From: an uncultured delta proteobacterium
GTDB lineage: Bacteria > Desulfobacterota > RBG-13-43-22
NCBI GenBank assembly: GCA_963843145.1
Contig: CAWJJC010000020.1
Location: 448,001 to 512,000 of the forward strand
Direction: 5' to 3'
Length of the DNA: 64,000 nucleotides
In this document: piece after piece, positions 31,775 to 45,218 of the stretch
Numbering within the stretch: the stretch's first letter is position 1
Layout: each line of letters starts with the position of its first letter
Translations under genes and position numbers: made by a program
The notes under the pieces: generated by a model
What the model was told of the DNA's origin: nothing
The model's input: the letters and a program-made list of their open reading frames with translations, nothing else
Databases searched by the model: none

Positions 31775-31960
31775 ATGAAAAACAAGGAAGTCTGGCCGTT
31801 CGTTTTTTTGCTGGGACTGCTGTTCTTTAATTGGCCGCTGATGGACCTCTTTGGATCGATACTGCCTTATTATCTCTATTCGGCCTGGTTTCTTTTCATT
31901 CTGGGAATCGGTTTCCTGGCCACCGTGAAAGGTCGGGTGGAAAAAAACGATCATGTTTAA
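31775..31960 (+). CDS. small two-TM membrane protein, CbrX-like, overlapping the kinase start
   Basis: 61 aa hydrophobic protein; stop overlaps the next ATG by 8 nt. Confidence 0.65.
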   Translation: MKNKEVWPFVFLLGLLFFNWPLMDLFGSILPYYLYSAWFLFILGIGFLATVKGRVEKNDHV

Positions 31961-34910
31961 AAACTGGCAGCTTTCCCTGATCAGCCTGGGGTATCTGAGC
32001 ATCCTGTTCATGGTTGCCTACTATGCCGAATGGCGGGAAAAGAAGGGCCGGAGCATTGTCACCAACCCCTATGTCTACTCCCTTTCACTGGCCGTTTATT
32101 GCACCTCCTGGACCTTTTACGGCAGCGTCGGAGAAGCGGCAACTTCGGGGTTGTCGTTTTTGCCCATCTATTTAGGCCCCACCCTGATGGCCGCTCTCTG
32201 GGGGGTGCTGCTCTTGAAAATTATCGGGATCGCCCATAAAAATCGAATAACCACCATCTCCGATTTTTTAGGGTCCCGGTATGGAAACTCCCTTTTTCTC
32301 TCCGGTCTGGTCACCGTGGTGACGCTGGTCGGGATCACCCCCTACCTGGGCCTGCAGATGAAGGCCATCATGAATACCTTTACGATTATGGCCGGTGAAC
32401 CCCGGGGAAGCATGGCCGCCGGATGGGTGATCACCCTGATCCTGGGCAGCTTCGCCATTATCTTCGGCGCCCGCCGACTGGACTCCTCCGAACGTCACGG
32501 CGGCCTGGTTTTTGCCATTGCCTTTGAATCGCTGGTCAAATTGATCGCCTTCCTCCTGGTGGGCCTCTTCGTCACCTTTGGTCTGTTCAACGGGTTCGGC
32601 GACATCTTCAACCGGATTCAAAGCTCCAACTTCAGCTATCTGTTGATGATCGGCAGCGGCTCTTCGGTCAGCTTTCAGGAGTGGGCTACCCTGCTCTTTC
32701 TTTCCATGATGGCCATCCTCTTTCTTCCGCGGCAATTTCACATCACCGTGGTGGAGAATTCGGACCCTTCCCATATTTCCAAAGCCACCTGGCTGTTCCC
32801 CCTCTACCTCCTGCTGATCAACGTCTTCGTCATCCCCGTGGCCTTCGGCGGTCTCCTGCTGGGCGGCAACCAACTGGAGGCCGACAGCTTCGTCCTGACC
32901 ATCCCCCTGCGCCAGGGAAGGTCCTACCTGGCCCTTCTGGCCTTTATCGGCGGTTTTTCCGCGGCCACCGGCATGATCATCGTGGAATCGCTGGCCCTGA
33001 GCACCATGGTCATGAACAGCCTGGTCATGCCGGCCATTTTTCGGTACAACCATGTCCGGGGCTTTCCCACCATTATCTTGAACATCAAACGGCTCATCAT
33101 CATCGGGTGTGTATTTTTAGGGTATTTTTTTGCCGTCTTTATTGGGCGCTTTTACACCCTGGTGGAGATCGGGCTGAAGTCGTTTGAAGCCGTGACCATT
33201 TTTGCCCCGCCCCTGATCCTGGGCCTCTACTGGAAGAAGGGCAACCGAAACGGGGCCATCGCCGGGATTGTCGCCGGTTTTGTGATCTGGTTTTATACCC
33301 TGCTCATGCCCGCCTTGATCAAGGCCGAAGTGTTCACCCCGGAAGGATTCCTGGCCGCCACCTTACGCCTGGATCTCCTCAACCCCCATGCCCTCTTCGG
33401 CTTGAAGGGGCTGGACAAGTGGAGCCAATCGCTCTTTTGGGGGCTGCTCTTCAACCTGTCCCTCTACTTGGGGTTTTCCATATTCACCAATCAGCGGGAG
33501 GGAGAAGATCGGCAGGCCCTGCTCTTTGTCGAATCCTATGACCCGGGCTTCGTTTCCCAAAAAAGCCGCTATACTATCCGGCAAATCGAGGAAATTCTAG
33601 GCCAGTATGTGGGCCGCATCGAGGCCCAGGAAATCATCGACCGTTTCATTCGGCAGCAGGGGATCAACCGCGAGGCGATCTCCTCGGAGGAAATCATTCA
33701 CTTGCGGAACGAGGCGGAGCGGGTCCTTTCCGGGGCACTGGGATCCTCCATCGCGACCATTATTTTTGAGGAAAAATCCGTCCTGACCGAAGAGGAACGG
33801 GGCGAGCTTTCCCATTCCATCAAGCAGATCACCGACACCCTGAGGCTTTCCCGCCATGAACTGGCCGAAGCCAACCGCAATCTGGCTTACCTGAAAGAAT
33901 TCAGTGAGAATATTATCGAAAGCGCCCCGGTGGGCATCATCACCGTGGACTCCCTCTCCCGGGTCAAGTACTGGAACCGGGAGATGGAAACCATCACCGG
34001 GATCAAAAAAAGCGTGGCCATCAACCGTTCCATTCAACCCCTGCTGCCCTGGGTCCATCGGGGGGCCTGGGGTCCCGGAAGTCCCCAGGAACTCATCGTC
34101 CAGACCCCGGCCAAGCAGACCATTAAAATCAACCTCAGCCCTTTTAAGGATCCGTCGGGCGGGCTGGTCGTCATGCTGGAGAACATTACCGAAAAAAAGA
34201 AAATGGAGGAGCAGCTCCTGCAGACCTCCAAATTGGCCAGTCTGGGACAGCTCACGGCCGGCATCTCCCATGAAATCGGGAACCCCCTGGCTTCCATCTC
34301 CTCCCTGGTCCAAGAACTGCAATCCATCGAACTGCTCGATCCGGAAGAAATCCTCTTTACCCGCGATTCCTTGAAAACCATCAACAGTCACCTGGAACGA
34401 ATCGCCAAGATCGTGCGCAGTCTGGGCGATTTTGCCCGCATCTCCTCCTCGGAGAAAAAACCGACCAATATTGTAGAAATCCTGGATCAGACCATCAGCC
34501 TGGTGAAATACGATAAACGCTCCCGGAAGGTGGACTTCACCTCCGACATCGACCCCATTCCCTTTCTGCGGGTCAACCCCGATCAGATTCAGCAGGTGTT
34601 TCTGAACATGGTACTCAATGCCATCGATGCCATGCCGGCGGGAGGCCGGTTCAATGTGTCCATCAAGCGGGCCGATCCTTGGGTGGAAATCCGCTTCACC
34701 GATACCGGCCAAGGGATCGAAGAGGCCGTGCTGGATCGAATATTCGACCCCTTCTTTACGACCAAGCCCCTGGGCAAAGGAACGGGATTGGGTTTAAGCA
34801 TCTGTTATGGTATCATCAGGGATCACGACGGGCAAATTTCGGTAAAAAGCAAAAAGGGAATCGGGACTACCTTTGAAATCCGACTCCCCCTGGAGGAATC
34901 CAATGGATGA
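31953..34910 (+). CDS. cbrA: SLC5(SSS)-STAC-PAS-histidine kinase, CbrA-like
   Basis: YSLSLAVYCTSWTFYGSVG, LPRQFH, AERVLSGALGS (STAC), PAS, SHEIGNPL H-box, DTGQGI, FDPFFTTK, GTGLGL; no receiver domain. Confidence 0.85.
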   Translation: MFKNWQLSLISLGYLSILFMVAYYAEWREKKGRSIVTNPYVYSLSLAVYCTSWTFYGSVGEAATSGLSFLPIYLGPTLMAALWGVLLLKIIGIAHKNRITTISDFLGSRYGNSLFLSGLVTVVTLVGITPYLGLQMKAIMNTFTIMAGEPRGSMAAGWVITLILGSFAIIFGARRLDSSERHGGLVFAIAFESLVKLIAFLLVGLFVTFGLFNGFGDIFNRIQSSNFSYLLMIGSGSSVSFQEWATLLFLSMMAILFLPRQFHITVVENSDPSHISKATWLFPLYLLLINVFVIPVAFGGLLLGGNQLEADSFVLTIPLRQGRSYLALLAFIGGFSAATGMIIVESLALSTMVMNSLVMPAIFRYNHVRGFPTIILNIKRLIIIGCVFLGYFFAVFIGRFYTLVEIGLKSFEAVTIFAPPLILGLYWKKGNRNGAIAGIVAGFVIWFYTLLMPALIKAEVFTPEGFLAATLRLDLLNPHALFGLKGLDKWSQSLFWGLLFNLSLYLGFSIFTNQREGEDRQALLFVESYDPGFVSQKSRYTIRQIEEILGQYVGRIEAQEIIDRFIRQQGINREAISSEEIIHLRNEAERVLSGALGSSIATIIFEEKSVLTEEERGELSHSIKQITDTLRLSRHELAEANRNLAYLKEFSENIIESAPVGIITVDSLSRVKYWNREMETITGIKKSVAINRSIQPLLPWVHRGAWGPGSPQELIVQTPAKQTIKINLSPFKDPSGGLVVMLENITEKKKMEEQLLQTSKLASLGQLTAGISHEIGNPLASISSLVQELQSIELLDPEEILFTRDSLKTINSHLERIAKIVRSLGDFARISSSEKKPTNIVEILDQTISLVKYDKRSRKVDFTSDIDPIPFLRVNPDQIQQVFLNMVLNAIDAMPAGGRFNVSIKRADPWVEIRFTDTGQGIEEAVLDRIFDPFFTTKPLGKGTGLGLSICYGIIRDHDGQISVKSKKGIGTTFEIRLPLEESNG

Positions 34911-36072
34911 ACGACTGTTAATTGTGGAAGATGAAGATACCCTCAGGGAATCGCTCAGCCGGGTCTTTTCCCGGGAGGGGTATCAGGTGGTGGCGGTGAG
35001 CAGCGCCGAGCCGGCGCTGGAACTTTTCGAGGAAGGGTATTTTGACCTGATCATCACCGACATCATTCTGCCGGGAATCACCGGGATCGAACTGCTGAAA
35101 CGGGTCAAGGAGACGGCACCCGAACAGGTGGTCATCATCATGACCGCCTATGCCTCCCTGGAAACCGCCGTCGAAACCCTGCGCAACGGCGCCTACGACT
35201 ACATCGTCAAACCCATCATCCACGAAGAAATCAAGCAGATCGTCAAAAACGCGCTGAAGGTCCGGGCCTTGCAGAAGGAAAACGTCTTTCTCAAGAAGCA
35301 GATGGGCGGGTCCTATGACCTGAGCCGCATCATCGGGCAGCATCCCGAAATCCAGCAGATCGTCGGCCGGATCAAAAAGATCGTGGAGACCCGCAGCAAC
35401 GTCCTGTTCATCGGGGAAGTCGGGACCGGCAAGCGGCTTATCGCTCGGGCCATCCACTTCAACAGCCCCCGGGCCGACAAAACCTTCATGCCCGTCAACC
35501 TCCGGGCCATTCCTTCCCACCTGCTGGAGGAGGAGCTCTTCGGCCGGGTCAAGGACACCTTTCCCGGCTCCAGCCTGGTCATGGGAGGTTTTCTGGAAGA
35601 AGCCAACGGGGGAACGATCTATCTCAACGGCATTGAACTGTTGTCTCCCGACCTGCAGTTGAAACTCCTGAGGGTGTTGGAAGACCAGGAAGTCCGGCCG
35701 GTGGGCGGACCCCAGGGCATCAAGCTGGATCTACTGGTGATCTCCAGCTCTAACCTGGAACTGGAGGACCTGGTCCAGGCCGGGGAATTCCGGGAAGATC
35801 TCTACCAGCGCCTGAAGGTCGTGATCCTCAAAATCCCCCCTTTGCGGGAACGGGAAGAGGATTTGGACCTTCTGGCCCGGTTTTTCATCCAGCGCTATGC
35901 CAAAGAATTCGGCAAAACCGTCAAGGACCTCGCCCCGGAGGTCCTGACCCAATTCAAACGCTATGACTGGCCGGGCAACGTCCGTGAATTGCGTAGCCTT
36001 CTGGAAAGAGCCGTCCTGATCACCCGGGAAGAAGTTATCCGTCCCCATCATTTCTCGATCCCAGCGCCCTGA
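34903..36072 (+). CDS. receiver-AAA+ NtrC-like protein with degenerate AAA+ motifs and no HTH
   Basis: Receiver Asp present (IITDI); GAFTGA replaced by DTFPGS; Walker B YLNGI; ends HHFSIPAP; ATG 34903 with SD GGAGGA. Confidence 0.85.
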   Translation: MDERLLIVEDEDTLRESLSRVFSREGYQVVAVSSAEPALELFEEGYFDLIITDIILPGITGIELLKRVKETAPEQVVIIMTAYASLETAVETLRNGAYDYIVKPIIHEEIKQIVKNALKVRALQKENVFLKKQMGGSYDLSRIIGQHPEIQQIVGRIKKIVETRSNVLFIGEVGTGKRLIARAIHFNSPRADKTFMPVNLRAIPSHLLEEELFGRVKDTFPGSSLVMGGFLEEANGGTIYLNGIELLSPDLQLKLLRVLEDQEVRPVGGPQGIKLDLLVISSSNLELEDLVQAGEFREDLYQRLKVVILKIPPLREREEDLDLLARFFIQRYAKEFGKTVKDLAPEVLTQFKRYDWPGNVRELRSLLERAVLITREEVIRPHHFSIPAP

Positions 36073-36084
36073 ACCCGACGGATT

Positions 36085-37983
36085 ATGATCATTGAAGACG
36101 TCCTCAGTTTTTTAAAAGGGATCCCCCCGTTTCAATTCCTGGAAGAACCCCTCTTAAAAAAAGCGGCCGGGAGCCTGTCCCTGGAATTCTATCCCAAGGA
36201 TACCGTCATCTTGAAACAAAACGGCCCTCCCAGCGATTCTTTGCGGGTAATCAAAAAAGGGGCGGTCAAGGTCCTGATGGGGGACGAGACGGGGGAAGAA
36301 ATCGTCCTGGAATACAAAGGGGAGGGAGATAACTTCGGGTTCCTTTCCCTGATCGGAAAGGATCGCCAGCGGACCACCGTCAAGGCGGTCGAGGACACCC
36401 TCTGCTACATAATGGATGAACAGCGGGTGCGCAAGCTGATAGAAACCAGCCCGCCCTTCAACGAATATTTCATGGCCTACCTCTCCCGGTATGTGGATCG
36501 GACCTATCAGGAGATGCATCAACGGAACGCACTAAACAACGAAAGCGACCGCCTCCTGTTCACCACCTCGTTGGGGAGCATCGCCATTCCGCTGGTCACA
36601 GTATCCGAAAAGACCTCCATTCAGGAGGCGGCGCAGGTGATGGCCCAACACAAAATCAGCTCCCTGATCATCTGCAATAAAAACAACTTGCCCAGCGGGA
36701 TCGTCACCGATCGCGACTTGCGGGAAAAAGTGGTCGCCAAGGGTCGAAACATCGCCGAACCGGTCAAAAACATCGGAAATCTTTCCTTGATCCGGGCGGA
36801 CGGGAGAGATTCCTGCTTCGAGGCCCTGTTGAAAATGATCCAGTATGGCATCCACCATCTGCTGGTGGTGGAGGAGGGCGCCCTGAAGGGCATTGTTACC
36901 AACCATGACCTGATGCTGCTCCAGGGAACGTCTCCGGTTTCCTTTGCCAATGATATTTTGAATCAAGAAACCGTCGAAGGCCTGGTCCCCTTAACACAAA
37001 AAATTTTTAATATCATCCACCTGCTGTTAAAGGAAGACACCCAGGTAGCCCACCTGTCCAATATTATTACCGAGATTTATGACCGCCTTTTCCGCAAGGT
37101 CATGGAGATCGGAGAAAAAAAATTCGGCCCGCCGCCCCTGCCCTATTGTTTTGTGGTCCTGGGCAGTGAAGGCCGCAGGGAACAGATCTTTAAAACCCGG
37201 CAGGACCATTGCCTGATCTATTCTGACCCGGGGACCCCGGGCGCCGAGATCGAGGCCGCCGGATACTTTGCGGATCTCAGCGCTTGGATCCGGGACAGCC
37301 TGACGACTCTGGAAATACCTCCGGGGCCGGGCGGCTATCTGGCCTCCAACCCCAACTGGCGGCAACCGTTTCAAGTCTGGCAAAAAATTTTCCGGGAGTG
37401 GATCGAGGAGGCTTCCCCGGAAAAACTAAGGGAGGCCCTGCCCTTTTTTGACTCCCGCCCCTTGTATGGAAAATTCAGCCTTTTTCTGACCACCCGGGAC
37501 CATATCGTCGCCCTCATCGGCGAGGAAGGGCAGGGTTTTTTGAAAGCTGTTACCGAATTAATCGTTAAAACCCCGCCGCCGGTAGGGTTCATCAAAAACC
37601 GGGTGGTGGAACAGGATGGAACCCAGCAGGAACGGCTCGACTTGCACGAAAAAGGCCTGCGGCCCTTGATCGATCTGGTCAGGCTCTTTGCCCTTTCCAG
37701 GGGCATTCGGGAAACCTCCACGCTGGCCCGGATCCAGGCCCTGAAAGACCGCGAACCGGCCTTCCAAAAACTCAGCGGGGAGCTGGCCCATGCTTTCGAG
37801 TTCATGATGCTGTTTACTATTCATCATCAGTTTCAGCAGATTAAGAAAGGCCAGCGGCCGGACTCCCTGTTAGAACCGACGCATCTGAACAGCCTGGAGA
37901 AAAAGACTCTTCGGGAAGCCTTCCGCTTGATCGGTCGGCTGCAGGCCCTGGCTCAGGCGGCCTTTGGGGTGGAAACCCCCTGA
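36085..37983 (+). CDS. cNMP/CBS/DUF294 protein, NTase motif partly degenerate
   Basis: GSEGRREQIFKTRQDHCL (DxD changed to RQD). Confidence 0.88.
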   Translation: MIIEDVLSFLKGIPPFQFLEEPLLKKAAGSLSLEFYPKDTVILKQNGPPSDSLRVIKKGAVKVLMGDETGEEIVLEYKGEGDNFGFLSLIGKDRQRTTVKAVEDTLCYIMDEQRVRKLIETSPPFNEYFMAYLSRYVDRTYQEMHQRNALNNESDRLLFTTSLGSIAIPLVTVSEKTSIQEAAQVMAQHKISSLIICNKNNLPSGIVTDRDLREKVVAKGRNIAEPVKNIGNLSLIRADGRDSCFEALLKMIQYGIHHLLVVEEGALKGIVTNHDLMLLQGTSPVSFANDILNQETVEGLVPLTQKIFNIIHLLLKEDTQVAHLSNIITEIYDRLFRKVMEIGEKKFGPPPLPYCFVVLGSEGRREQIFKTRQDHCLIYSDPGTPGAEIEAAGYFADLSAWIRDSLTTLEIPPGPGGYLASNPNWRQPFQVWQKIFREWIEEASPEKLREALPFFDSRPLYGKFSLFLTTRDHIVALIGEEGQGFLKAVTELIVKTPPPVGFIKNRVVEQDGTQQERLDLHEKGLRPLIDLVRLFALSRGIRETSTLARIQALKDREPAFQKLSGELAHAFEFMMLFTIHHQFQQIKKGQRPDSLLEPTHLNSLEKKTLREAFRLIGRLQALAQAAFGVETP

Positions 37984-39329
37984 TGGCCGAGCGAATCCTC
38001 ATTGTTGACGATGAAGCCACCCTGTGCGCGTCCCTGCAGCGGGTTTTCGTCAGGGAAGGGTATGAGGTGGTAACGGCCCACGACGCCGAGGCGGCCCTGG
38101 CCCAATTCGAGGAAGGCGCCTACGACCTGATCATTTCCGATATCCTCCTTCCCGGCATGAACGGCATCGAGTTTCTGCAGGCCGTCAAAAAACGGGCGCC
38201 CGACCTGATCGTCATCGTCATGACCGCCTATGCTTCCATCGAAACTGCCGTCAGCGCCCTGCGCTCCGGGGCCCACGATTATATTCTTAAGCCGGTCATC
38301 CATGACGAAATCAAACGCCTGGTTCGGCTGGCCCTGCACGAAAGGGCCCTTCGGACCGAAAACATCCTGTTAAAAAAACAGATCGAAGACCGCTATGACT
38401 TTGAAAACATCCTAGGCAAAAGTCAGTCTATTCAAGATCTGATCGAACAGGTGAAAAAAATATCGGATTCCCGCAGCAACGTCCTGGTCCTGGGGGAAAC
38501 CGGCACCGGGAAAGAACTGTTTACCCGGGCTATCCATTTCAACAGTTCTCGCAGGAACAAGCCCTTCGTACCCATCAATTGCAGCGCCATTCCCGATAAC
38601 CTCCTGGAATCCGAATTGTTCGGCTACGTCAAAGGCGCCTTTACCGGAGCCACCCAGACCAAGAGAGGCCTGCTGGAAGAAGCGGATGGGGGCACTGTTT
38701 TCCTGGACGAAATCGCCGATCTGGGTTTCTCCCTTCAGGCCAAATTGCTCCGGGTGATCGACGATCACGAAATTCGTCCCCTGGGCAGCACTCAGAGCCG
38801 AAAGGTGGACCTGCGCTTTGTCTCCGCCACCAATAAAGATGTCCGGACAGCCGTGAAGGAAGGGTCTCTGCGGGAGGACCTTTATTACCGCCTGAGCGTG
38901 GTCACCTTTCACTTGCCCCCTCTTCGAGACCGGAAAGAGGATATTCCTATTTTGGCCCGTCGGTTCGTCAAAAAGTATGTCCAGGAACTGGGGAAGCCGG
39001 TCCAGGAAATCGATCCGGTCGCCATTAAAATCTTTAGCGAATACGATTGGCCAGGGAATGTCAGGGAGCTTCAGAATGTCATTGAGCGGGCCGTACTGAT
39101 TTCCGAAGGGAAGAGCATCCTTCCCGAACATCTTCCAGAGGGAATCAGGAAGACCGATTCTTTTATGTTGAAGGCCCTGGATGATTCATTATCTATAGAA
39201 AACTATACCAAAGAATTCATCAAACGACACGAAACCTCCATGAACGAACAAAGACTTGCGGATATGCTGGGGATTACCAGAAAGGCCCTTTGGGAAAAGA
39301 GAAAAAGGTGGGGTCTGGTAAAAAAATAA
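37983..39329 (+). CDS. cbrB: sigma54-dependent response regulator, CbrB-like
   Basis: GETGTGKE, ESELFGYVKGAFTGA, FLDEI, WPGNVREL; tail LSIENY...LADMLGITRKALWEKR resembles the CbrB C-terminus. Confidence 0.8.
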   Translation: MAERILIVDDEATLCASLQRVFVREGYEVVTAHDAEAALAQFEEGAYDLIISDILLPGMNGIEFLQAVKKRAPDLIVIVMTAYASIETAVSALRSGAHDYILKPVIHDEIKRLVRLALHERALRTENILLKKQIEDRYDFENILGKSQSIQDLIEQVKKISDSRSNVLVLGETGTGKELFTRAIHFNSSRRNKPFVPINCSAIPDNLLESELFGYVKGAFTGATQTKRGLLEEADGGTVFLDEIADLGFSLQAKLLRVIDDHEIRPLGSTQSRKVDLRFVSATNKDVRTAVKEGSLREDLYYRLSVVTFHLPPLRDRKEDIPILARRFVKKYVQELGKPVQEIDPVAIKIFSEYDWPGNVRELQNVIERAVLISEGKSILPEHLPEGIRKTDSFMLKALDDSLSIENYTKEFIKRHETSMNEQRLADMLGITRKALWEKRKRWGLVKK

Positions 39330-39330
39330 A

Positions 39331-39443
39331 TGTTACTTTTTTTCCTGAAAAGCTCGGCATTTATTACTTTTGGTAACATAATATAACTTATTATATTTAT
39401 TATGTAATTATTATATGCAATAATTTTCGTAACCATTTGTAAC
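39331..39443 (+). promoter_or_regulatory. putative enhancer (UAS) with TGTTAC/GTAAC(A) half-sites
   Basis: TGTTAC 39331-36, GTAACA 39373-78, GTAAC 39429-33 and 39439-43 in AT-rich DNA 120-240 bp upstream of a sigma54 promoter. Confidence 0.6.
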
Positions 39444-39565
39444 GTTTTTTTTAACAAAATCATGAAAACTATTTCACCAATAGAAGAACCTGCTCAAACC
39501 AATTGAATAGAATATAATAATTAATTCAGTAGGTTATTATATTCAGGGCGCTCTCTTTCCTTCCC

Positions 39566-39581
39566 TGGCATACCTATTGCT
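39566..39581 (+). promoter_or_regulatory. sigma54 (-24/-12) promoter
   Basis: TGGCAT-ACCTA-TTGCT with exact GG-N10-GC spacing. Confidence 0.85.
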
Positions 39582-39591
39582 TCGTTAATAA

Positions 39592-39714
39592 TGAAAAAAT
39601 TAAATTACGTAATCGGGTTTAAAGAGGATCGCACTCTTTAAAGGTTAAATATTTTAACACCGATGGTCGGGCCGCCATCTCCGTCATATTTTATGACGGG
39701 TTGGCGGTTTTTTT
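39592..39714 (+). ncRNA. candidate sigma54-dependent structured small RNA or attenuating leader (~120 nt)
   Basis: Bounded by the sigma54 promoter and an intrinsic terminator; can form a three-way junction (ATCGG/CCGAT, TTTAAAGAG/CTCTTTAAA, GTTAAA/TTTAAC). Confidence 0.55.
39672..39714 (+). terminator. intrinsic terminator
   Basis: CCGCCA..CCGTCATA-TTT-TATGACGG..TGGCGG followed by T7. Confidence 0.8.
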
Positions 39715-39768
39715 CTTTCCTGAATAAACAACAATAAAAATTTGAATAGATCGATCCCCTGATCTCAG

Positions 39769-41700
39769 GTGAATATTCCTCCGGGGAAACAGGTCATGGC
39801 AATCGAAGAGGCCCTACAATTCCTCCGGGAAACCCCCCCGTTTCATAATCTGGACGGCGTGGTCCTGCAGGATATCCGGGCCCAAATTACCACGGAAACC
39901 TATCCCCAGGGTACCCCTATAGTTCTCCCGGACAGGCCGGGGGGGGACCATCTTCGAATAATCAAGAAGGGAGCGGTTAAGGTTATCGCCTACTTTGGCT
40001 CAGCGAGCGACGTGGTGACGGACTACCGAGGAGCAGGGGAAATCTTCGGATTTTTGTCCCTGCTGACCGGAGACGAGCTGAAGGCCCAGGTGGTCGCCCT
40101 GGAGGAAACCACATGCTACCTCATCGACCGGAAGATGTTTTTTCAGCTTATTCAGACCCAGCCGGCCTTCGCCGAACAAATGTTCGCCGCCGTTCTGAAA
40201 AAATATGTGGATAAGCCCAACCGGGAAAGGGGAAAGAAGAAACTGCTCTATGGGGGGGCCGACCGCCTTTTTTTTACAACTCCCGTCGGTGAACTGGTTA
40301 CCAGGGACCTGGTTACGGCCTCCGAAGAAATTTCCATCCGGGAGGCCACGGAGATCATGTCCAAGGAGCAGATAAGCTCCTTGGTCCTATTGAATCCCCT
40401 GGGACTGCCATCGGGGATTATAACCATCAAGGACCTGCGGGATAAAGTGGTTTCCAGAGGGCGGGACCTCAATCTGCCGGTCAAAAGGGTCCAGAGCGTT
40501 TCACTGGTCCGGGCCGAAGCCGGCGAGCACTGCATCGAAGCCCTATTTAAGATGATTCATTATAACATCCATCATCTGCTGGTGGTGGACCAGGGTCGTC
40601 TGAAGGGGGTCGTGACCACCCACGATCTGATGAAACTGCAGGGCGCTTCGCCGATTTCTCTGGTCCGAGAGATTGAGGGCCGGCATTCCTTGGAGGACCT
40701 GGCCCCGCTTGGCGGGAAAGTCCGGGACCTGGTGGGGATTTTTTTGAATGACGGCGTCAATCCGGCCCAGATCCTGCGGATTACCACCGAGGTCTATGAC
40801 CGCCTACTCCGGAAGATACTCGAAATAGTCGAAAGGAAACTGGGGACCCCGCCGAGATCTTATTGCTATGGTTCCCTCGACCGGGCCGGCCGTAAGGAGC
40901 AGGGTTTGGAGAACGTTCAACCCTTCGCCCTGATATATTCCGATCCCGCCCCTTCGGAGCCGGAAAAAGAAGCCCGGGAATATTTTGACCGTTTCTTTTA
41001 CCTGACCTCCGAAGCCCTGGGTCGTCTCGGCTTTCAGGTCTCGACACTTGAGGACCCTGAATCCGGAAATCTCGACCGCTGCCGAACGCTAGGATCTTGG
41101 AAGACCGTATTTACCGATTGGATCCATCAGGCAGATGCCCGGTCCGCTGCGGCTGCTCTGCCCTATTTGGATTTCCGGCCCCTGCACGGCGATCTGCGCC
41201 TGGCCGACGATTTACGGCGCTCGATTACCTCCGATTTGTCCCGAAAACGGGAATTCCTGGAGGCCCTGGCCCTGTTCATTCTTAAAAACTCTCCCCCGAT
41301 CAGCGTTTTCCGGAACTTCATTTTGAAAAAAAGCGGAGAGTTCAAAGGATGCTTCGACCTGGAGGAAAAAGGGTTGAGGCCTCTGGTGGACCTGATTCGG
41401 TTTTTCGCTCTGGAAGCCGGGATACCTGAAACCTCCACCCTGGATCGACTTCAAGCCCTGAAGGCGATTTCTCCCTTGGTCAGGGAAAACGGGCAGGAGC
41501 TGGAATACGGCTTTGAATTCCTGACCGGGCTCTGGCTGAAGATTCGGCAGGAACAGATCACCCGGGGACTCCCGCCGCATCCCTACCTGGACCCTAACAA
41601 CCTAAACAGCCTGGAAAAAAAAACGCTGAAAGAAGTGTTCGCCCTGGTCGCCCGACTGCAGGGTCTGCTGCTGGAGAAGGTTCAACCAATTAAATTCTGA
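39769..41700 (+). CDS. cNMP/CBS/DUF294 protein, NTase motif fully degenerate
   Basis: LDRAGRKEQGLENVQPFAL in place of LGSEGR.EQ....DQDNAL; start may be ATG 39796. Confidence 0.85.
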   Translation: MNIPPGKQVMAIEEALQFLRETPPFHNLDGVVLQDIRAQITTETYPQGTPIVLPDRPGGDHLRIIKKGAVKVIAYFGSASDVVTDYRGAGEIFGFLSLLTGDELKAQVVALEETTCYLIDRKMFFQLIQTQPAFAEQMFAAVLKKYVDKPNRERGKKKLLYGGADRLFFTTPVGELVTRDLVTASEEISIREATEIMSKEQISSLVLLNPLGLPSGIITIKDLRDKVVSRGRDLNLPVKRVQSVSLVRAEAGEHCIEALFKMIHYNIHHLLVVDQGRLKGVVTTHDLMKLQGASPISLVREIEGRHSLEDLAPLGGKVRDLVGIFLNDGVNPAQILRITTEVYDRLLRKILEIVERKLGTPPRSYCYGSLDRAGRKEQGLENVQPFALIYSDPAPSEPEKEAREYFDRFFYLTSEALGRLGFQVSTLEDPESGNLDRCRTLGSWKTVFTDWIHQADARSAAAALPYLDFRPLHGDLRLADDLRRSITSDLSRKREFLEALALFILKNSPPISVFRNFILKKSGEFKGCFDLEEKGLRPLVDLIRFFALEAGIPETSTLDRLQALKAISPLVRENGQELEYGFEFLTGLWLKIRQEQITRGLPPHPYLDPNNLNSLEKKTLKEVFALVARLQGLLLEKVQPIKF

Positions 41701-41752: not shown

Positions 41753-42463
41753 ATGCTCGATTTTTTTAGAAGCAAAAAAACAAAATTTAACGCCGGAGCC
41801 CCTCCGGGGGCCGTGGTTGAAGCCGGACTCCCGATCAATGAAATCCGCGCCGTGGTCCTGGACACCGAACTGACCGGTCTGGACCGAAAACGGGACGCTA
41901 TCGTTTCCATCGGGGCGGTCAAAATGGTCGGGGGCCGGATCGAAATGGGCCACACCTTTTACCAGTTGGTGAACCCCAACAAGGTGATGAAGCCGGAGAG
42001 TGTGGTCGTCCATGAGATCACCCCCTCCGAGGTCGTTGAAAAGCCAGATATCGGCCCGGTCCTGGCAGAATTCCTGACCTTCTGCAACGGAGACATCCTG
42101 ATCGGTCATTATATCAACATGGACCTGGCCTTCATCAACCGGGAGTTAAAGAAGACCTTGGGCCGAACCCTGAAGAATCCGGCCCTGGACACCATGGCCC
42201 TGATGCACTGGTGGCGTTCCAACACCCCCCAGCATGGCCCGAGCTCCTTTACGGCCCAAAATTTTGAGTTGGTGGCCATCGCCAAGGAATTGGCCATACC
42301 GGTCCAGGGGGCGCACAACGCCCTCATGGACGCCTTTATGACCGCGCAGGTTTTTCAACGGTTGCTCCCGAGGCTGGAGCAATCAGGCCTGCGGACCCTG
42401 GGGGAGCTGCTGCGGGCGGGAGATCCGGCCCGCAAGCTGCGGCAGGCCGGGGCGATGATTTGA
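41753..42463 (+). CDS. DEDDh 3'-5' exonuclease (DnaQ-like), DUF294-associated
   Basis: LDTELTG, MDLAF, HNALMDA. Confidence 0.9.
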   Translation: MLDFFRSKKTKFNAGAPPGAVVEAGLPINEIRAVVLDTELTGLDRKRDAIVSIGAVKMVGGRIEMGHTFYQLVNPNKVMKPESVVVHEITPSEVVEKPDIGPVLAEFLTFCNGDILIGHYINMDLAFINRELKKTLGRTLKNPALDTMALMHWWRSNTPQHGPSSFTAQNFELVAIAKELAIPVQGAHNALMDAFMTAQVFQRLLPRLEQSGLRTLGELLRAGDPARKLRQAGAMI

Positions 42464-42647: not shown

Positions 42648-42905
42648 ATGGCTACAAGAGATTTAAAGGCCTACTGGAAGGAGAATCTTACCTACGTGTT
42701 CATTCTCCTGGCTATCTGGTTTGCTGTGTCCTACCTCTTCGGCATCATCCTGGTCAACCAACTGGGTAGCGTCTACCTGGGCGGTTTCCCGCTGGGGTTC
42801 TGGTTCGCCAACCAGGGATCGGAGGTCATCTTTGTCCTCCTGATCCTGGTTTACGTAAAACTGATGAATGCCCTGGATCGAAAATACGACGTCCATGAAA
42901 AGTAG
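42648..42905 (+). CDS. solute:sodium symporter small subunit (DUF4212-like)
   Basis: AYWKEN, GFPLGFWFANQGS; SD AAGGAGG. Confidence 0.9.
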   Translation: MATRDLKAYWKENLTYVFILLAIWFAVSYLFGIILVNQLGSVYLGGFPLGFWFANQGSEVIFVLLILVYVKLMNALDRKYDVHEK

Positions 42906-42938: not shown

Positions 42939-44723
42939 ATGGGTATATTAGCTTGGACTTGGGTGATTGTCGGCCTGTCATTCGCCCTGTATATATCGAT
43001 CGCCTGGTACGCCAAGGCCAAAACCACCGGCGACTTCTACGTGGCCGAACGGCAGATCCATCCGGTCTTGAACGGGATGGCCACCGGGGCGGACTGGATG
43101 TCCGCGGCCTCCTTCATCTCCATGGCCGGTCTGATTTCCTTCCTCGGCCGGGACGGTTCCATGTACCTCATGGGCTGGACCGGCGGCTATGTCCTCCTGG
43201 CCATGCTTCTGGCCCCTTATCTGCGCAAGTACGGGAAGTTCACCGTACCCATGTTCGTCAAGGAGCGCTATTACTCCGATGCGGCCCGGGTCGTGGCCGT
43301 CTTCTGCGCCATCTTCGTGTCTTTTACTTACGTGGCCGGCCAGATGCGCGGCGTGGGCATTGTCTTCTCCCGCTTTTTGGAAGTGCCGATCAACACGGGC
43401 GTGCTGATCGGCATGGCCATCGTCTTTTTCTACGCCGTCACCGGCGGCATGAAAGGCATCACCTACACCCAGGTGGCCCAGTACTGCGTCTTGATCGTGG
43501 CCTACATGATCCCGGCCATCTTCATCTCCATCATGCTCACCGGTTGGCCCATCCCCCAGATCGGTTACGGCAGCAGCTTAAGCCAGGGCGGGCAGGCGCT
43601 TTTAGGTACCTCGCCGGGATACCTGCTGGATAAGCTGGACGGACTGCAGATAGAACTGGGCTTTAAGGCCTACACCGGCCAGGGGGCCAAGAGTCTGCTC
43701 GACGTCTTCATGATCACCTTCGCCCTGATGGTCGGAACGGCCGGGCTGCCCCACATCATCATCCGCTTTTTCACCACCCCGACGATCAAGGGCGCCCGGG
43801 CCTCGGCCGGCTGGGCCCTCTTCTTCATCGCCCTGCTCTACACCACCGCCCCGGCCGTGGCCGCCTTCGCCCGGACCAACCTGATCCTGACCTTAAACAA
43901 CAAAAACTACGCTGACGCGCCTTCCTGGTTCAAGAACTGGGAGATGACCGGTCTCGTCGCCTGGAAAGACAAGAACGGGGACGGCAAAATCCAGTTCGCC
44001 CCGGGAAACGCCTTTAAGGGCAAAGTGGCTTTTTCCAAGGAAAAAGGCCAATACGGAGAACGGGTAGTTACCACGCCTTTCGATGACAAGAGTAAAAACG
44101 AACTGTACATCGACAACGACATCGTCGTGCTGGCCAACCCGGAAATCGCCAAACTACCAAACTGGGTAGTGGCCCTGGTGGCCGCCGGCGGGCTGGCCGC
44201 GGCCCTGTCCACCGCGGCCGGTTTGCTCCTGGTCATTGCCTCGGCCATCTCCCACGACCTGATCAAGGGCATTATTCGCAAGGACATTTCCGAGAAGGGA
44301 GAACTGACCTGGGCCCGGAGCGCCGCCGGCGCGGCGGTCATCGTTGCCGGCTACTTCGGCATCAACCCCCCCGGCTTCGTGGCTCAGGTGGTGGCCTTTG
44401 CCTTCGGTCTGGCCGCCTCCTCCTTCTTCCCCCTGATCATCATGGGGATCTTCTGGAAGCGGGCCACCAAGGCCGGGGCCATCCTGGGCATGGCCAGCGG
44501 CATCGTCTTTACCGCCATCTACATCATCTACTTCAAGTTCGTCAACCCGGGGGTCAACAATGCCGCTCATTGGTTATGGGGCATCTCTCCGGAAGGCATC
44601 GGCACCATCGGGATGGCCCTTAACTTCATCGTGATGTATGTGGTTTCCCTGATCACCCCCCCGCCTCCGCAGGAGGTCCAGGACATGGTCGAGCGGATCC
44701 GTTATCCGAGGGAGCTGGCCTAA
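42939..44723 (+). CDS. sodium:solute symporter large subunit (VC_2705/ActP-related), probable acetate permease
   Basis: NGMATGADWMSAASFISMAG, GGMKGITYTQVAQY, GTAGLPH, AAGGLAAALSTAAGLL. Confidence 0.9.
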   Translation: MGILAWTWVIVGLSFALYISIAWYAKAKTTGDFYVAERQIHPVLNGMATGADWMSAASFISMAGLISFLGRDGSMYLMGWTGGYVLLAMLLAPYLRKYGKFTVPMFVKERYYSDAARVVAVFCAIFVSFTYVAGQMRGVGIVFSRFLEVPINTGVLIGMAIVFFYAVTGGMKGITYTQVAQYCVLIVAYMIPAIFISIMLTGWPIPQIGYGSSLSQGGQALLGTSPGYLLDKLDGLQIELGFKAYTGQGAKSLLDVFMITFALMVGTAGLPHIIIRFFTTPTIKGARASAGWALFFIALLYTTAPAVAAFARTNLILTLNNKNYADAPSWFKNWEMTGLVAWKDKNGDGKIQFAPGNAFKGKVAFSKEKGQYGERVVTTPFDDKSKNELYIDNDIVVLANPEIAKLPNWVVALVAAGGLAAALSTAAGLLLVIASAISHDLIKGIIRKDISEKGELTWARSAAGAAVIVAGYFGINPPGFVAQVVAFAFGLAASSFFPLIIMGIFWKRATKAGAILGMASGIVFTAIYIIYFKFVNPGVNNAAHWLWGISPEGIGTIGMALNFIVMYVVSLITPPPPQEVQDMVERIRYPRELA

Positions 44724-44757
44724 GCCAAAACCAAAGATAGCTCTATTTTAATCCCAC

Positions 44758-44800
44758 TCCTTCCTACCCTCCCCCCCGCCCGGAGGGAGGGTAGGAAGGA
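44758..44800. terminator. 16-bp stem hairpin after the SSS gene
   Basis: TCCTTCCTACCCTCCC / GGGAGGGTAGGAAGGA. Confidence 0.65.
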
Positions 44801-44869
44801 ATAGTAATTGATAATCAACCATTAACTAATATTTATTAAAAGAGCGATTAAACCAGCCCATCCGGCTCA

Positions 44870-45146
44870 GCCGACATCGGCTGGGTGACCGGGCACAGCA
44901 CCATTGTCTACGGGTCGTTATCCGCCGGGGCCACCAGCCTGATCTTCGAGGGCATCCCCACCTATCCCCAGGCCGGCCGGTTCTAAGACATCGTGGACAC
45001 CCGGTGGCAGACCGAGAACGGGGGGATACTGATCACGCCGTTACCCGGGGCCATGACCTTGAAACCCGGTTTGGCCACCCGTCCCTTTCCCGGGGTCTTC
45101 CCCAAGATCATCCAGGAGGACGGTTCGGCGGCCAAGGCCAACAAGG
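44870..45146 (+). pseudogene. acetyl-CoA synthetase remnant
   Basis: [15 protein letters not shown]...[45 protein letters not shown]; stop at 44984-86 and an internal deletion. Confidence 0.85.
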
Positions 45147-45218
45147 TGAGCAAGCGAGAAAATTGGCAAGGCTGTAATTGTTAGCCTGAAAAAAATATAA
45201 AAAGGAGTGAAAAAAACT

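What the first reader, a model, noticed from the sequence alone, without database searches (positions are those of the whole stretch)
39331..39768. Candidate new sigma54-dependent structured RNA at the crcZ position behind a CbrB-like gene
Seen: directly after the CbrB-like gene come TGTTAC/GTAAC(A) half-sites, an exact -24/-12 promoter (39566-81), about 120 nt able to fold as a three-way junction (P1 39612-16/39660-64, P2 39618-42, P3 39644-58) and a strong terminator with T7 (39672-714), all before the next CDS. GATGG (39662-66) could instead pair with CCATC in the terminator 5' arm; this excludes P1 and would make a switch. An AACAACAATAA motif (39727-37) lies just past the terminator. Known: in Pseudomonas, CbrB binds TGTTAC/GTAACA sites and drives the sigma54 sRNA CrcZ directly downstream of cbrB, with read-through into the next gene. 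Inference: this RNA is shorter than CrcZ and lacks its repeated AAnAAnAA motifs, so it is either a different sRNA output of a Cbr-like system in an anaerobe or a ligand/protein-controlled attenuator for the DUF294-exonuclease(-transporter) genes.
Basis: partly seen in the sequence, partly recalled or inferred. Interest (0 to 1): 0.85.

Follow-up and report, generated by a model that had tools for sequence, protein, structure and literature searches.

The report
Known sodium/lithium-type riboswitch behind sigma54 promoter
The "new RNA" is a member of an already described ion-sensing riboswitch family (nhaA-I, probably its sodium-sensing form) that sits, unusually, behind a sigma54 promoter and probably lets a sodium-coupled acetate-uptake operon be transcribed only when both its activator protein and the ion signal are present.

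Summary
The sequence features are real, but the RNA is not new. Rfam nhaA-I (RF03057) matches window 39615-39680 at 44.7 bits (cut-off 37), the only Rfam hit in the window. The terminator (39671-39714) overlaps the 3' arm of P2, as in 23 of 27 other phylum members. This is the terminator-bearing deltaproteobacterial variant that White et al. 2022 showed to be a Na+-activated ON switch ("Na+-II"). The TGTTAC-N5-GTAACA sites and the exact sigma54 promoter are confirmed and conserved in six orthologous loci. None of those loci has the riboswitch, so it was gained or kept only in this lineage. Downstream lie genes for cNMP-CBS-DUF294, an exonuclease, a two-subunit VC_2705-family sodium/solute symporter, and acs. 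Best reading: a two-input gate, with a CbrB-like activator AND a Na+ riboswitch controlling Na+-coupled acetate uptake. The context is new: 1 of 28 aptamers has a sigma54 promoter and none of the other 27 precedes DUF294. Ligand identity and expression are untested.

The parts
31953..34910 (+). Sensor histidine kinase with an N-terminal sodium:solute-symporter-like (SSF/SLC5) region, PAS, HisKA and HATPase domains (CbrA/CrbS-type architecture)
   Evidence: Pfam; NCBIfam best match AtoS, below its cut-off
34873..36072 (+). Response regulator with a sigma54-interaction AAA+ domain, 399 aa, no DNA-binding domain detected
   Evidence: Pfam
36085..37983 (+). First cNMP-binding/CBS/DUF294 nucleotidyltransferase paralogue
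   Evidence: Pfam
37983..39329 (+). Response regulator and sigma54 activator (448 aa), the 'CbrB-like' gene
   Evidence: Pfam; NCBIfam, (AtoC/NtrC-like, below cut-offs)
39332..39345 (+).
   Evidence: The pattern matched the window plus L021 and L024 (3 of 7 segments). Similar, non-matching sequences in L017-L020 were seen by eye.
39362..39378 (+). Upstream activator site 1, TATTAC-N5-GTAACA
   Evidence: equivalent palindrome in 6 orthologous loci
39428..39444 (+). Upstream activator site 2, CGTAAC-N5-GTAACG; 66 bp after site 1 and 138 bp before the promoter
39566..39581 (+). Sigma54 -24/-12 promoter TGGCAT-N5-TTGCT; the inferred start of transcription is near 39592
   Evidence: the start site is inferred from the spacing only
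39615..39680 (+). nhaA-I-class aptamer: GGGU, P1 39619-26/39634-41, AGG at 39642-44, a 16-nt linker, P2 39661-67/39674-80 with loop CGGGCC at 39668-73
   Evidence: Rfam RF03057 at 44.7 bits against a cut-off of 37; covariation in a 28-sequence alignment
39671..39714 (+). Intrinsic terminator (expression platform). Its 5' arm, 39671-79, overlaps the P2 loop and 3' arm; T7 at 39708-14
39727..39740 (+). A-rich AACAACAATAAAAA tract, present only in read-through transcripts; function unknown
39796..41700 (+). cNMP-binding/CBS/DUF294 protein. The start is probably ATG 39796, because the N-terminus then matches the orthologues; the ORF listing starts it at GTG 39769
41753..42463 (+). DnaQ/RNase T-type 3'-5' exonuclease
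42648..42905 (+). Sodium/substrate symporter small subunit (DUF4212, TIGR03647)
   Evidence: 101.7 bits, cut-off 26
42939..44723 (+). VC_2705-family sodium/solute symporter (TIGR03648)
   Evidence: 845.6 bits, cut-off 320.75; Pfam SSF
45207..47267 (+). Acetate--CoA ligase (Acs). It may be a separate transcription unit, because a 484-nt gap with a long hairpin follows the symporter gene

Best explanation
The element is a cis-acting riboswitch of the nhaA-I family (Rfam RF03057). It belongs to the terminator-bearing deltaproteobacterial sub-type that White et al. 2022 named Na+-II.

Inferred transcription: it starts near 39592 from a sigma54 promoter. That promoter is activated by the neighbouring CbrB-like response regulator, bound at two TGTTAC-N5-GTAACA-type sites.

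Inferred switching: the nascent leader first folds the aptamer (P1, then P2 with the CGGGCC loop). Without ligand, the roughly 10 kcal/mol more stable terminator (39671-39714) takes over the P2 3' arm, and transcription stops at the T7 run, leaving an RNA of about 123 nt. With the ion bound, P2 holds. Only a hairpin not adjacent to the U-run remains, and polymerase reads through into the genes for DUF294, the exonuclease and the two-subunit sodium/solute symporter, and perhaps acs.

The operon therefore needs two inputs: the kinase/activator signal and the cytoplasmic cation. I put Na+ at about 0.6-0.65 and Li+ at about 0.15.

Shown here: family membership, helices, terminator overlap, promoter and site conservation, gene content. 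Inferred: start site, ligand, ON polarity, operon extent.
For: Family match. RF03057 scores 44.7 bits (cut-off 37), E 1.3e-5 for the window and 2.6e-7 for the genome. It is the only hit above cut-off in the window and the only copy in the genome.

Conserved nucleotides and helices. All 12 invariant columns of a 28-sequence alignment are present in the window's copy. P1 and P2 are supported by covariation: 95.6% of cells are paired, 12 of 14 pairs change on both sides, 0 of 500 shuffles reach this, and slid controls give 41-59% paired. The window keeps P1 through U-A pairs where the others have C-G.

Expression platform. In 24 of 28 aptamers, the window's included, a terminator hairpin starts 6-12 nt before the aptamer's end. 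The full leader's MFE is -43.1 with the terminator, against -32.7 with P1 and P2 enforced. The aptamer alone, and the nascent RNA up to 39691, fold into P1 and P2.

Published behaviour (section 8 of PMC9646797, read). Terminator-bearing nhaA-I variants occur only in Deltaproteobacteria, upstream of non-nhaA genes. The Desulfobulbus propionicus example activates transcription with Na+.

Host phylum. A same-family relative's contig is titled Thermodesulfobacteriota (the same contig as L017).

Natural variant. One metagenome contig, about 88% identical, has 9 changes in the 21-nt stretch 39589-39609. It has only 3 in the 66-nt aptamer: one turns an A-U pair into G-U and two lie in the P1 loop. 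There are none in 39634-39687. Of its 4 terminator substitutions, two lie at the top of the stem or in the loop (39688, 39691; 39688 A>T gives up the closing A-U pair). The other two keep (39697) or strengthen (39708) a stem pair. One T of the run is deleted.

Gene content. The downstream genes name a sodium-dependent transporter above curated cut-offs.

Promoter. An exact promoter, rpoN in the genome, and conserved geometry of sites and promoter in 6 orthologous loci.
Against: No expression data exist: no RNA run holds the stretch. The 5' end near 39592, the 3' end near 39714 and read-through are therefore all unobserved.

The ligand is not tested. The one published discriminator, C instead of U at 'position 54' of the D. 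propionicus construct, could not be mapped, because the figure and supplements were not available.

The window's aptamer is atypical for the group. It has an AU-rich P1 opening with U-A pairs, the longest linker of the 28 sequences, and a C-U mismatch at the base of P2, so its affinity or specificity may differ.

An ON response to cytoplasmic Na+ that raises a Na+-importing symporter is not an obviously homeostatic design.

The natural-variant evidence rests on a single contig of depth 3.9.

Whether the symporter genes and acs belong to the same transcript is unknown. No convincing internal terminators or promoters were found, but the scans are crude.
Confidence: 0.8

Rival explanations
1. The same riboswitch family and the same terminator mechanism, but the ligand is Li+ (a Li+-I riboswitch), or a broader set of monovalent cations, rather than Na+.
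For: The Rfam family is defined mainly by Li+-responsive, nhaA-associated RNAs (PMC9646797 sections 5-6). The P2 loop is identical in terminator-type and non-terminator-type members seen here. A single C54U change broadened the response of the D. propionicus RNA to Li+, Na+ and NH4+, so specificity is labile. The window's aptamer is atypical within the group.
Against: Section 8 of the paper states that the terminator-type deltaproteobacterial variants with non-nhaA genes are the ones that changed specificity to Na+. The regulated transporter is a sodium/solute symporter, not a Li+/Na+ exporter. Switching on a solute importer and acetate genes in response to a rare toxic ion makes little physiological sense.
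Confidence: 0.15
2. The roughly 123-nt terminated transcript is itself the product: a sigma54/CbrB-dependent trans-acting small RNA analogous to CrcZ, with read-through as a by-product.
For: It has the same position as crcZ, directly downstream of a CbrB-like gene behind a sigma54 promoter with TGTTAC/GTAACA sites. The terminator is strong, so the short RNA should accumulate whenever the activator is on and the ligand is low.
Against: No Rfam sRNA family reaches its gathering score in the window; nhaA-I is the only hit above cut-off. There are no AANAANAA motifs in 39592-39714. The six orthologous loci have the same promoter reading straight into the DUF294 or exonuclease gene with no RNA element. 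The promoter's conserved job is therefore to drive the operon. The RNA belongs to a cis-regulatory family whose other members precede unrelated genes.
Confidence: 0.04
3. The covariance-model match is fortuitous. The region is just a leader with a constitutive or protein-controlled attenuator.
For: The score is only 7.7 bits above the cut-off. P1 is AU-rich and the linker carries a 10-nt insertion relative to the model. The element is absent from all orthologous loci.
Against: Every invariant nucleotide is present. The register between terminator and P2 is the same as in 23 of 27 other members. The next-best hits of my own model in the window score 12 bits or less. A diverged natural variant spares the aptamer while the adjacent leader changes at 9 of 21 positions.
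Confidence: 0.03

Closest known systems
Na+-II riboswitch (terminator-bearing nhaA-I variant; Desulfobulbus propionicus example, White et al. 2022, PMC9646797 section 8)
   Same: The aptamer has the same architecture and conserved nucleotides. An intrinsic terminator overlaps the P2 3' arm. The host belongs to the former Deltaproteobacteria. The associated gene is not nhaA. An ON switch is expected.
   Different: It is driven by a sigma54 promoter with activator sites. In the phylum, 15 of 28 aptamers have a sigma70-type promoter and only the window's has a sigma54-type one. The downstream genes are DUF294, an exonuclease and a sodium/solute symporter, not the small hypothetical genes seen elsewhere. 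P1 is AU-rich and the linker is the longest of the set. Ligand and 'position 54' identity are untested.
Li+-I riboswitch (nhaA-I motif, RF03057; Azorhizobium caulinodans nhaA example)
   Same: Same Rfam family, helices and loop.
   Different: According to the paper, Li+-I members mostly precede nhaA and appear to act at the ribosome-binding site. Here the platform is a terminator and the operon is not a cation exporter.
Na+-I riboswitch (DUF1646 motif)
   Same: A similar two-hairpin consensus, and the logic of reporting cytoplasmic Na+ to genes that use or manage the Na+ gradient.
   Different: A different Rfam family, with distinct conserved features in lower P1 and the P2 loop according to the paper. 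The window's RNA was not reported as matching it.
CbrB-dependent sRNA CrcZ of Pseudomonas
   Same: It lies directly downstream of a response-regulator/sigma54-activator gene, behind a sigma54 promoter, with TGTTAC/GTAACA half-sites.
   Different: There is no sequence or structure match and no A-rich repeat motifs in the RNA. It acts in cis as a riboswitch. The palindromes have N5 spacing. The activator was not shown to be a CbrB orthologue.
CrbS/CrbR (MxtR/ErdR) acetate regulon of Vibrio and Pseudomonas
   Same: An SLC5-domain sensor kinase controls acs, a cation/acetate-type symporter and a cNMP-CBS-nucleotidyltransferase protein. Pflu5625 is in the P. fluorescens regulon according to passages of PMC5715377. 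The gene set here is the same.
   Different: According to that paper, CrbR acts at RpoD promoters through a different motif. Here the regulator is a sigma54 activator and a riboswitch is added.

Membership tests
nhaA-I motif RNA (Rfam RF03057) | Score at or above the curated gathering threshold of the covariance model over the full model | tested here: met
   44.7 bits against 37, model positions 1-55 of 55
nhaA-I motif RNA (Rfam RF03057) | A 5' GGGU, hairpin P1, an AGG linker, and hairpin P2 closed on a UCGGGCCGC-type loop | tested here: met
   All invariant columns are present. P1 and P2 are supported by covariation in 28 sequences.
nhaA-I motif RNA (Rfam RF03057) | Lies in the 5' leader of a gene on the same strand (cis-regulatory position) | tested here: met
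   It lies between the promoter at 39566-81 and the ATG at 39796
Na+-II riboswitch (variant of nhaA-I) | Intrinsic terminator as expression platform, competing with the aptamer | tested here: met
   The terminator's 5' arm starts 9 nt before the aptamer's end. It is 10.4 kcal/mol more stable than the state with P2 enforced.
Na+-II riboswitch (variant of nhaA-I) | Found in Deltaproteobacteria, with gene associations other than nhaA | tested here: met
   A same-family relative's record is titled Thermodesulfobacteriota. The downstream gene is DUF294.
Na+-II riboswitch (variant of nhaA-I) | C rather than U at the position equivalent to nucleotide 54 of the D. propionicus construct | not testable with these tools
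   The position is defined only in Fig. 5A and the supplement of PMC9646797, which were not available. Only the text was read.
Na+-II riboswitch (variant of nhaA-I) | Selective response to Na+ (binding and read-through) | not testable with these tools
   Needs in-line probing or transcription assays
   0 matches in 39592-39714. Three overlapping matches occur only downstream of the terminator.
CrcZ-type CbrB-dependent sRNA | Match to an Rfam sRNA model for this family | tested here: not met
   nhaA-I is the only hit above cut-off. Nothing else exceeds 22.8 bits at E<=10, and all such hits are far below their cut-offs.
CrcZ-type CbrB-dependent sRNA | Sigma54 promoter with TGTTAC/GTAACA activator sites downstream of the activator gene | tested here: met

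The most novel reading that the evidence does not exclude
A riboswitch module was captured into the leader of a conserved sigma54/enhancer-binding-protein regulon. The result is a two-input AND gate, in which a CbrB-like activator signal and cytoplasmic Na+ jointly control a Na+-coupled acetate (monocarboxylate) uptake operon. This would be the first functional context for the Na+-II riboswitch class, whose associated genes the main text of White et al. 2022 describes as being of unknown function. It would also be an example of a sigma54 promoter feeding a riboswitch. A side consequence: TGTTAC/GTAACA-recognising, SLC5-kinase-linked sigma54 activators would not be confined to Pseudomonadaceae.
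Probability: 0.5. Interest if true: 0.45.

Novelty: new member of a known kind. Interest (0 to 1): 0.3.

Why it matters
The main value is corrective. A finding scored 0.85 as a "candidate new RNA" is in fact a member of a described, curated riboswitch family.

What remains of interest is the context.

1. The published Na+-II variants precede genes "of unknown function". Here the regulated operon encodes a recognisable two-subunit sodium/solute symporter with acetate-utilisation genes. That gives a testable physiological rationale: deploy Na+-coupled uptake only when Na+ is present.

2. A sigma54 promoter with conserved activator sites, combined with a transcription-terminating riboswitch, forms a natural AND gate.

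3. Six orthologous loci have the same promoter architecture without the riboswitch. The case therefore shows a riboswitch-plus-terminator cassette as a gain or loss within one class of bacteria.

4. The conserved TGTTAC-N5-GTAACA sites define a candidate operator for an SLC5-kinase/sigma54-activator system in Thermodesulfobacteriota.

Tried and rejected
Three-way-junction model. It was rejected in favour of the two-hairpin nhaA-I structure.

CrcZ-like sRNA. It was rejected.

Search for the riboswitch in orthologous loci. cmscan at E<=1 on 8 loci (L017-L024) found no nhaA-I. My own model R1, run on those 8 loci plus L049-L051, also found none.

DUF294 relatives in genome contigs. Only 3 loci were confirmed, and none has the aptamer.

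Scan of metagenome contigs for 'sigma54 promoter + 55-85 nt + aptamer loop'. Of the 80 matched stretches read, 34 had an 89-nt pattern length, and most of these are one conserved coding region that I read by eye as NtrB-type kinase. R1 found no aptamer among the 80; the best score was 18.6 bits. Because it was truncated, this scan says nothing about how rare the combination is.

Expression. No RNA holder was listed for window 39300-40300. The runs that were laid are DNA contigs and cannot show RNA ends. Parts of the stretch without contig cover are not evidence of anything.

Pairwise alignment of the window's leader with L017. The sequences are too diverged to place the insertion boundaries.

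(order, class). They returned the same 21 genomes as the family and added nothing.

Mapping 'position 54'. It is not possible from the text alone. Supplementary Table I and the alignments of PMC9646797 may already list this gene association or this sequence, and I could not see them.

Literature. 'Na+-II' + riboswitch gave 3 papers. DUF294 + exonuclease + acetate gave 0. riboswitch + enhancer-binding protein + sigma54 gave 33 papers. Of these I saw the listing of 15 and passages of one (PMC12316311). None of them, by title or start of abstract, describes a sigma54-driven riboswitch. This is a weak negative.

Full report
WHAT IS THERE

The intergenic region 39330-39795 lies between a response-regulator/sigma54-activator gene (37983-39329) and a cNMP-CBS-DUF294 gene. 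A scan of the whole 64-kb window against Rfam 15 at gathering thresholds gave exactly one match. That match is nhaA-I (RF03057), at 39615-39680 on the + strand, with 44.7 bits against a cut-off of 37 and covering the full model.

The alignment shows the following parts:
- the conserved 5' GGGU;
- an 8-bp P1 (39619-26/39634-41);
- the conserved AGG (39642-44);
- a linker with a 10-nt insertion relative to the model;
- a 7-position P2 (39661-67/39674-80, with a C-U mismatch at its base) closed on the CGGGCC loop.

It is the only copy in the 5.35-Mb assembly.

The pairing offered as an alternative, GATGG with CCATC, is the family's real P2.

I collected 27 further nhaA-I matches. They came from 61 relatives and from an evenly drawn sample of 151 genomes of the phylum; the two samples overlap. 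Two of the 27 (L015 and L046) score below the cut-off, and I kept them.

In the MAFFT alignment of the 28 sequences, 12 columns are invariant and all 12 are present in the window's copy. The two-hairpin structure is 95.6% paired. Twelve of 14 pairs change on both sides, and none of 500 shuffles reaches any of the five measures. Sliding the partners by 1-3 columns drops pairing to 41-59%. These sequences are relatives, and the structure was taken from the Rfam model, so the numbers overstate independence.

EXPRESSION PLATFORM

The 129-nt leader folds at -43.1 kcal/mol (z -4.73; 0 of 200 shuffles as good). In that fold, P1 is formed together with a long bulged hairpin at 39671-39708 followed by T7. 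Enforcing P1 and P2 costs 10.4 kcal/mol (-32.7). It leaves only an inner 9-bp hairpin (39680-88/39692-700) that is separated from the U-run.

The aptamer alone, and the nascent RNA up to 39691, fold into P1, a small linker hairpin and P2. So the default thermodynamic state is termination, and a ligand that stabilises P2 would give read-through.

The same register recurs across the family. In 24 of 28 aptamers, a terminator's 5' arm starts 6-12 nt before the aptamer's end; in the window it starts 9 nt before. The four without such a terminator are L006, L014, L036 and L041.

WHAT IS KNOWN ABOUT THIS FAMILY

I read the abstract and sections 5, 6, 8 and 9 of White et al. 2022 (PMC9646797). I did not see the figures or the supplements.

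According to that text, nhaA-I RNAs are Li+-responsive riboswitches that mostly precede nhaA. "Rare variants" carry an intrinsic terminator. These variants occur only in Deltaproteobacteria, upstream of genes of unknown function. The Desulfobulbus propionicus representative activates transcription with Na+, and only weakly with Li+. These variants were named Na+-II riboswitches. They carry C where most nhaA-I RNAs have U at 'position 54', and a C54U change broadens the response. The companion paper confirms the name in a passage (PMC9337991).

The window's element meets the criteria that can be tested here: the terminator platform, the host group, and a non-nhaA gene. The host group rests on a same-family relative's contig titled Thermodesulfobacteriota. 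'Position 54' could not be mapped without the figure.

PROMOTER AND ACTIVATOR SITES

TGGCATACCTATTGCT (39566-81) is the only exact match to TGGCAY-N5-TTGCW in the window, where 0.06 are expected. Allowing one mismatch it would not stand out, because 3.06 are expected. The genome has 36 exact matches against 3 for the reversed pattern. It also encodes RpoN, at 442 bits against a cut-off of 277.

A DNA search of the 21 genomes of the family, which equal the order and the class in this collection, found eight loci matching the 3' end of the activator gene. Six of them (L017-L021 and L024) continue with the same architecture as the window:
- two TGTTAC-N5-GTAACA-like palindromes, with 0-2 mismatches (the window's own have 1 and 3), 64-66 bp apart;
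- a GGCA-N6-TTGC promoter 121-138 bp after the second palindrome;
- a DUF294 gene next in L017, L018, L019 and L024, or what looks by eye like the exonuclease gene in L020 and L021.

A related GTTACTT-rich box directly follows the stop codon. The pattern found it only in the window, L021 and L024, and similar sequences elsewhere were seen only by eye. L022 and L023 have unrelated downstream sequence.

TGTTAC and GTAACA are the CbrB sub-sites reported for Pseudomonas putida (passages of PMC6296734). The observation about the sites and the promoter is therefore confirmed by phylogenetic footprinting. Orthology of the activator to CbrB was not tested; NCBIfam gives only sub-threshold AtoC and NtrC matches.

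THE RIBOSWITCH IS LINEAGE-SPECIFIC HERE

None of the eight loci has an nhaA-I match, either by cmscan at E<=1 or by my model R1. In the two same-genus genomes with the orthologous junction (G002 and G003, 90% and 94% complete), the promoter is followed by the start codon within about 13-18 nt. Those genomes also have no nhaA-I copy anywhere in the searches run. In the window, 214 nt separate the promoter from ATG 39796.

In contrast, the commonest nhaA-I locus in this family is a sigma70-type promoter, the aptamer, a terminator, and a gene for a 57-62-aa two-helix membrane protein. That locus was found in G001, G008, G009 and G011, but not in G000, G002 or G003 with the G001 protein as query.

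Across all 28 aptamers:
- 15 have a strict TTGACN-(16-19)-WAnnnT promoter within 120 nt;
- 3 are downstream members of tandems;
- only the window's has a sigma54-type element.

Of the downstream ORFs, I scanned 10 against Pfam. They gave NhaB (L014), CitMHS (L040), a periplasmic binding protein (L042), an HTH protein (L037), and six with no family. The remaining ORFs were seen only as translations. None is DUF294 or SSF.

A SECOND ORGANISM WITH THE ELEMENT

Nine DNA runs hold parts of the stretch and none is RNA. One 257-nt contig from run X7 aligns to 39556-39752 with 23 differences and one gap. Sixteen differences are listed. The other seven lie within roughly 30 nt of the ends of the aligned piece and are not shown. 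I therefore cannot say whether the promoter or the A-rich tract is identical in that contig.

Between 39589 and about 39720 the pattern is informative:
- 9 changes fall in 39589-39609, in the leader before the aptamer.
- 3 changes fall in the 66-nt aptamer. 39625 A>G turns an A-U pair into G-U, and 39631 and 39633 lie in the P1 loop.
- No changes fall in 39634-39687.
- In the terminator, 39688 and 39691 lie at the top of the stem or in the loop. 39697 C>T keeps a G-U pair. 39708 T>C turns G-U into G-C. One T of the run is deleted.

This is what purifying selection on the aptamer and terminator predicts. It rests, however, on one contig of depth 3.9.

THE REGULATED GENES

Downstream of the riboswitch lie five genes:
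- the cNMP-CBS-DUF294 gene;
- a DnaQ-type exonuclease gene;
- DUF4212, the 'sodium/substrate symporter small subunit' (TIGR03647, 101.7 bits, cut-off 26);
- a 'VC_2705 family sodium/solute symporter' (TIGR03648, 845.6 bits, cut-off 320.75);
- after a 484-nt gap, acetate--CoA ligase (above both Acs cut-offs).

Upstream lies an SSF-domain/PAS histidine kinase. It is followed by a second sigma54 response regulator without a detectable DNA-binding domain, and then by a DUF294 paralogue.

In Pseudomonas fluorescens, the SLC5-kinase system CrbS/R controls acs, actP and a cAMP-binding/CBS/nucleotidyltransferase protein (passages of PMC5715377). The gene set therefore matches a known acetate-utilisation regulon, here wired through sigma54. 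Crude scans show no convincing internal terminator or promoter between the DUF294 gene and the symporter gene, so the extent of the operon is an inference.

MECHANISM PROPOSED

The kinase/activator pair opens the sigma54 promoter (inferred). The leader then terminates at 39714 unless the aptamer is occupied (inferred from the structure and from the published behaviour of the sub-type). Read-through expresses the DUF294/exonuclease pair and the Na+-dependent symporter.

The ligand is most likely Na+, at about 0.6-0.65. This rests on the sub-type's published specificity and on the sodium-dependent transporter. Li+ or a broader cation response stands at about 0.15.

A caveat on logic: inducing a Na+ importer when cytoplasmic Na+ rises is not homeostatic. 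It makes sense only as 'use the Na+ gradient when the cell lives in Na+'. The Na+-I paper argues this way for ATP synthase genes (passage).

VERDICT

The RNA, however, is a new member of a known riboswitch class, not a new class and not a CrcZ analogue. Three things are moderately new and testable. The first is the sigma54 promoter context. The second is the association with a sodium/solute-symporter and acetate operon. The third is the evidence that the cassette is present in only one lineage of an otherwise conserved regulon.

No expression or ligand data exist. The supplements of the defining paper, which list the gene associations, could not be consulted.

Noticed in passing
L014:1501-1557 (G015:C161:8769-8825) and the ORF L014:1615-3057: An nhaA-I aptamer without a terminator lies about 58 nt upstream of an NhaB gene (Pfam PF06450, E 1e-186). 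Section 6 of White et al. 2022 states that nhaA-I RNAs are never associated with nhaB.
   Followed up: partly
L004, L005, L007, L008, L010, L012, L015 (downstream of each aptamer): In this bacterial family the commonest gene behind terminator-type nhaA-I aptamers encodes a 57-62-aa protein with two hydrophobic helices. The one member scanned, from L004, matches no Pfam family. With the G001 protein as query it was found in G001, G008, G009 and G011, weakly in G004 (E 3.7e-4), and not in the window's genome.
   Followed up: partly
window 44870-45150: The 484-nt gap between the symporter gene and acs contains what look by eye like decayed fragments of an Acs-like coding sequence, just upstream of the intact acs. 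A perfect 15-bp hairpin (about 44757-44803) follows the symporter's stop codon.
   Followed up: no
window 34873-36072: There is a second response regulator with a sigma54 AAA+ domain but no detectable DNA-binding domain (399 aa). It overlaps the kinase gene's end and is followed by a DUF294 paralogue (36085-37983). The locus thus carries two activator-like proteins and two DUF294 genes.
   Followed up: no
window 39727-39740: The A-rich tract AACAACAATAAAAA gives three overlapping AANAANAA matches. It is present only in read-through transcripts, 56-69 nt before the start codon, and could be an Hfq-type (ARN)n site. No evidence on this was gathered.
   Followed up: no
L052:122-225 (-) and L064:937-1040 (+): Two metagenome contigs share a sigma54-type promoter, followed about 20 nt later by an ~85-nt sequence ending in a GC-rich hairpin. 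L052 then has a T-run, while L064 has only four Ts. This may be a sigma54-dependent small RNA, unrelated to nhaA-I (no R1 match at E <= 0.1).
   Followed up: no
L003/L013 (G021), L039/L044 (G161), L043/L047 (G136): Tandem pairs of terminator-type nhaA-I aptamers lie 135-156 nt apart, each with its own terminator. This is consistent with the tandem arrangements the paper mentions for environmental sequences.
   Followed up: no
window 39769 versus 39796: the ORF listing starts the DUF294 ORF at GTG 39769. The N-terminus matches the orthologues only from ATG 39796, so that is the likelier start.
   Followed up: partly
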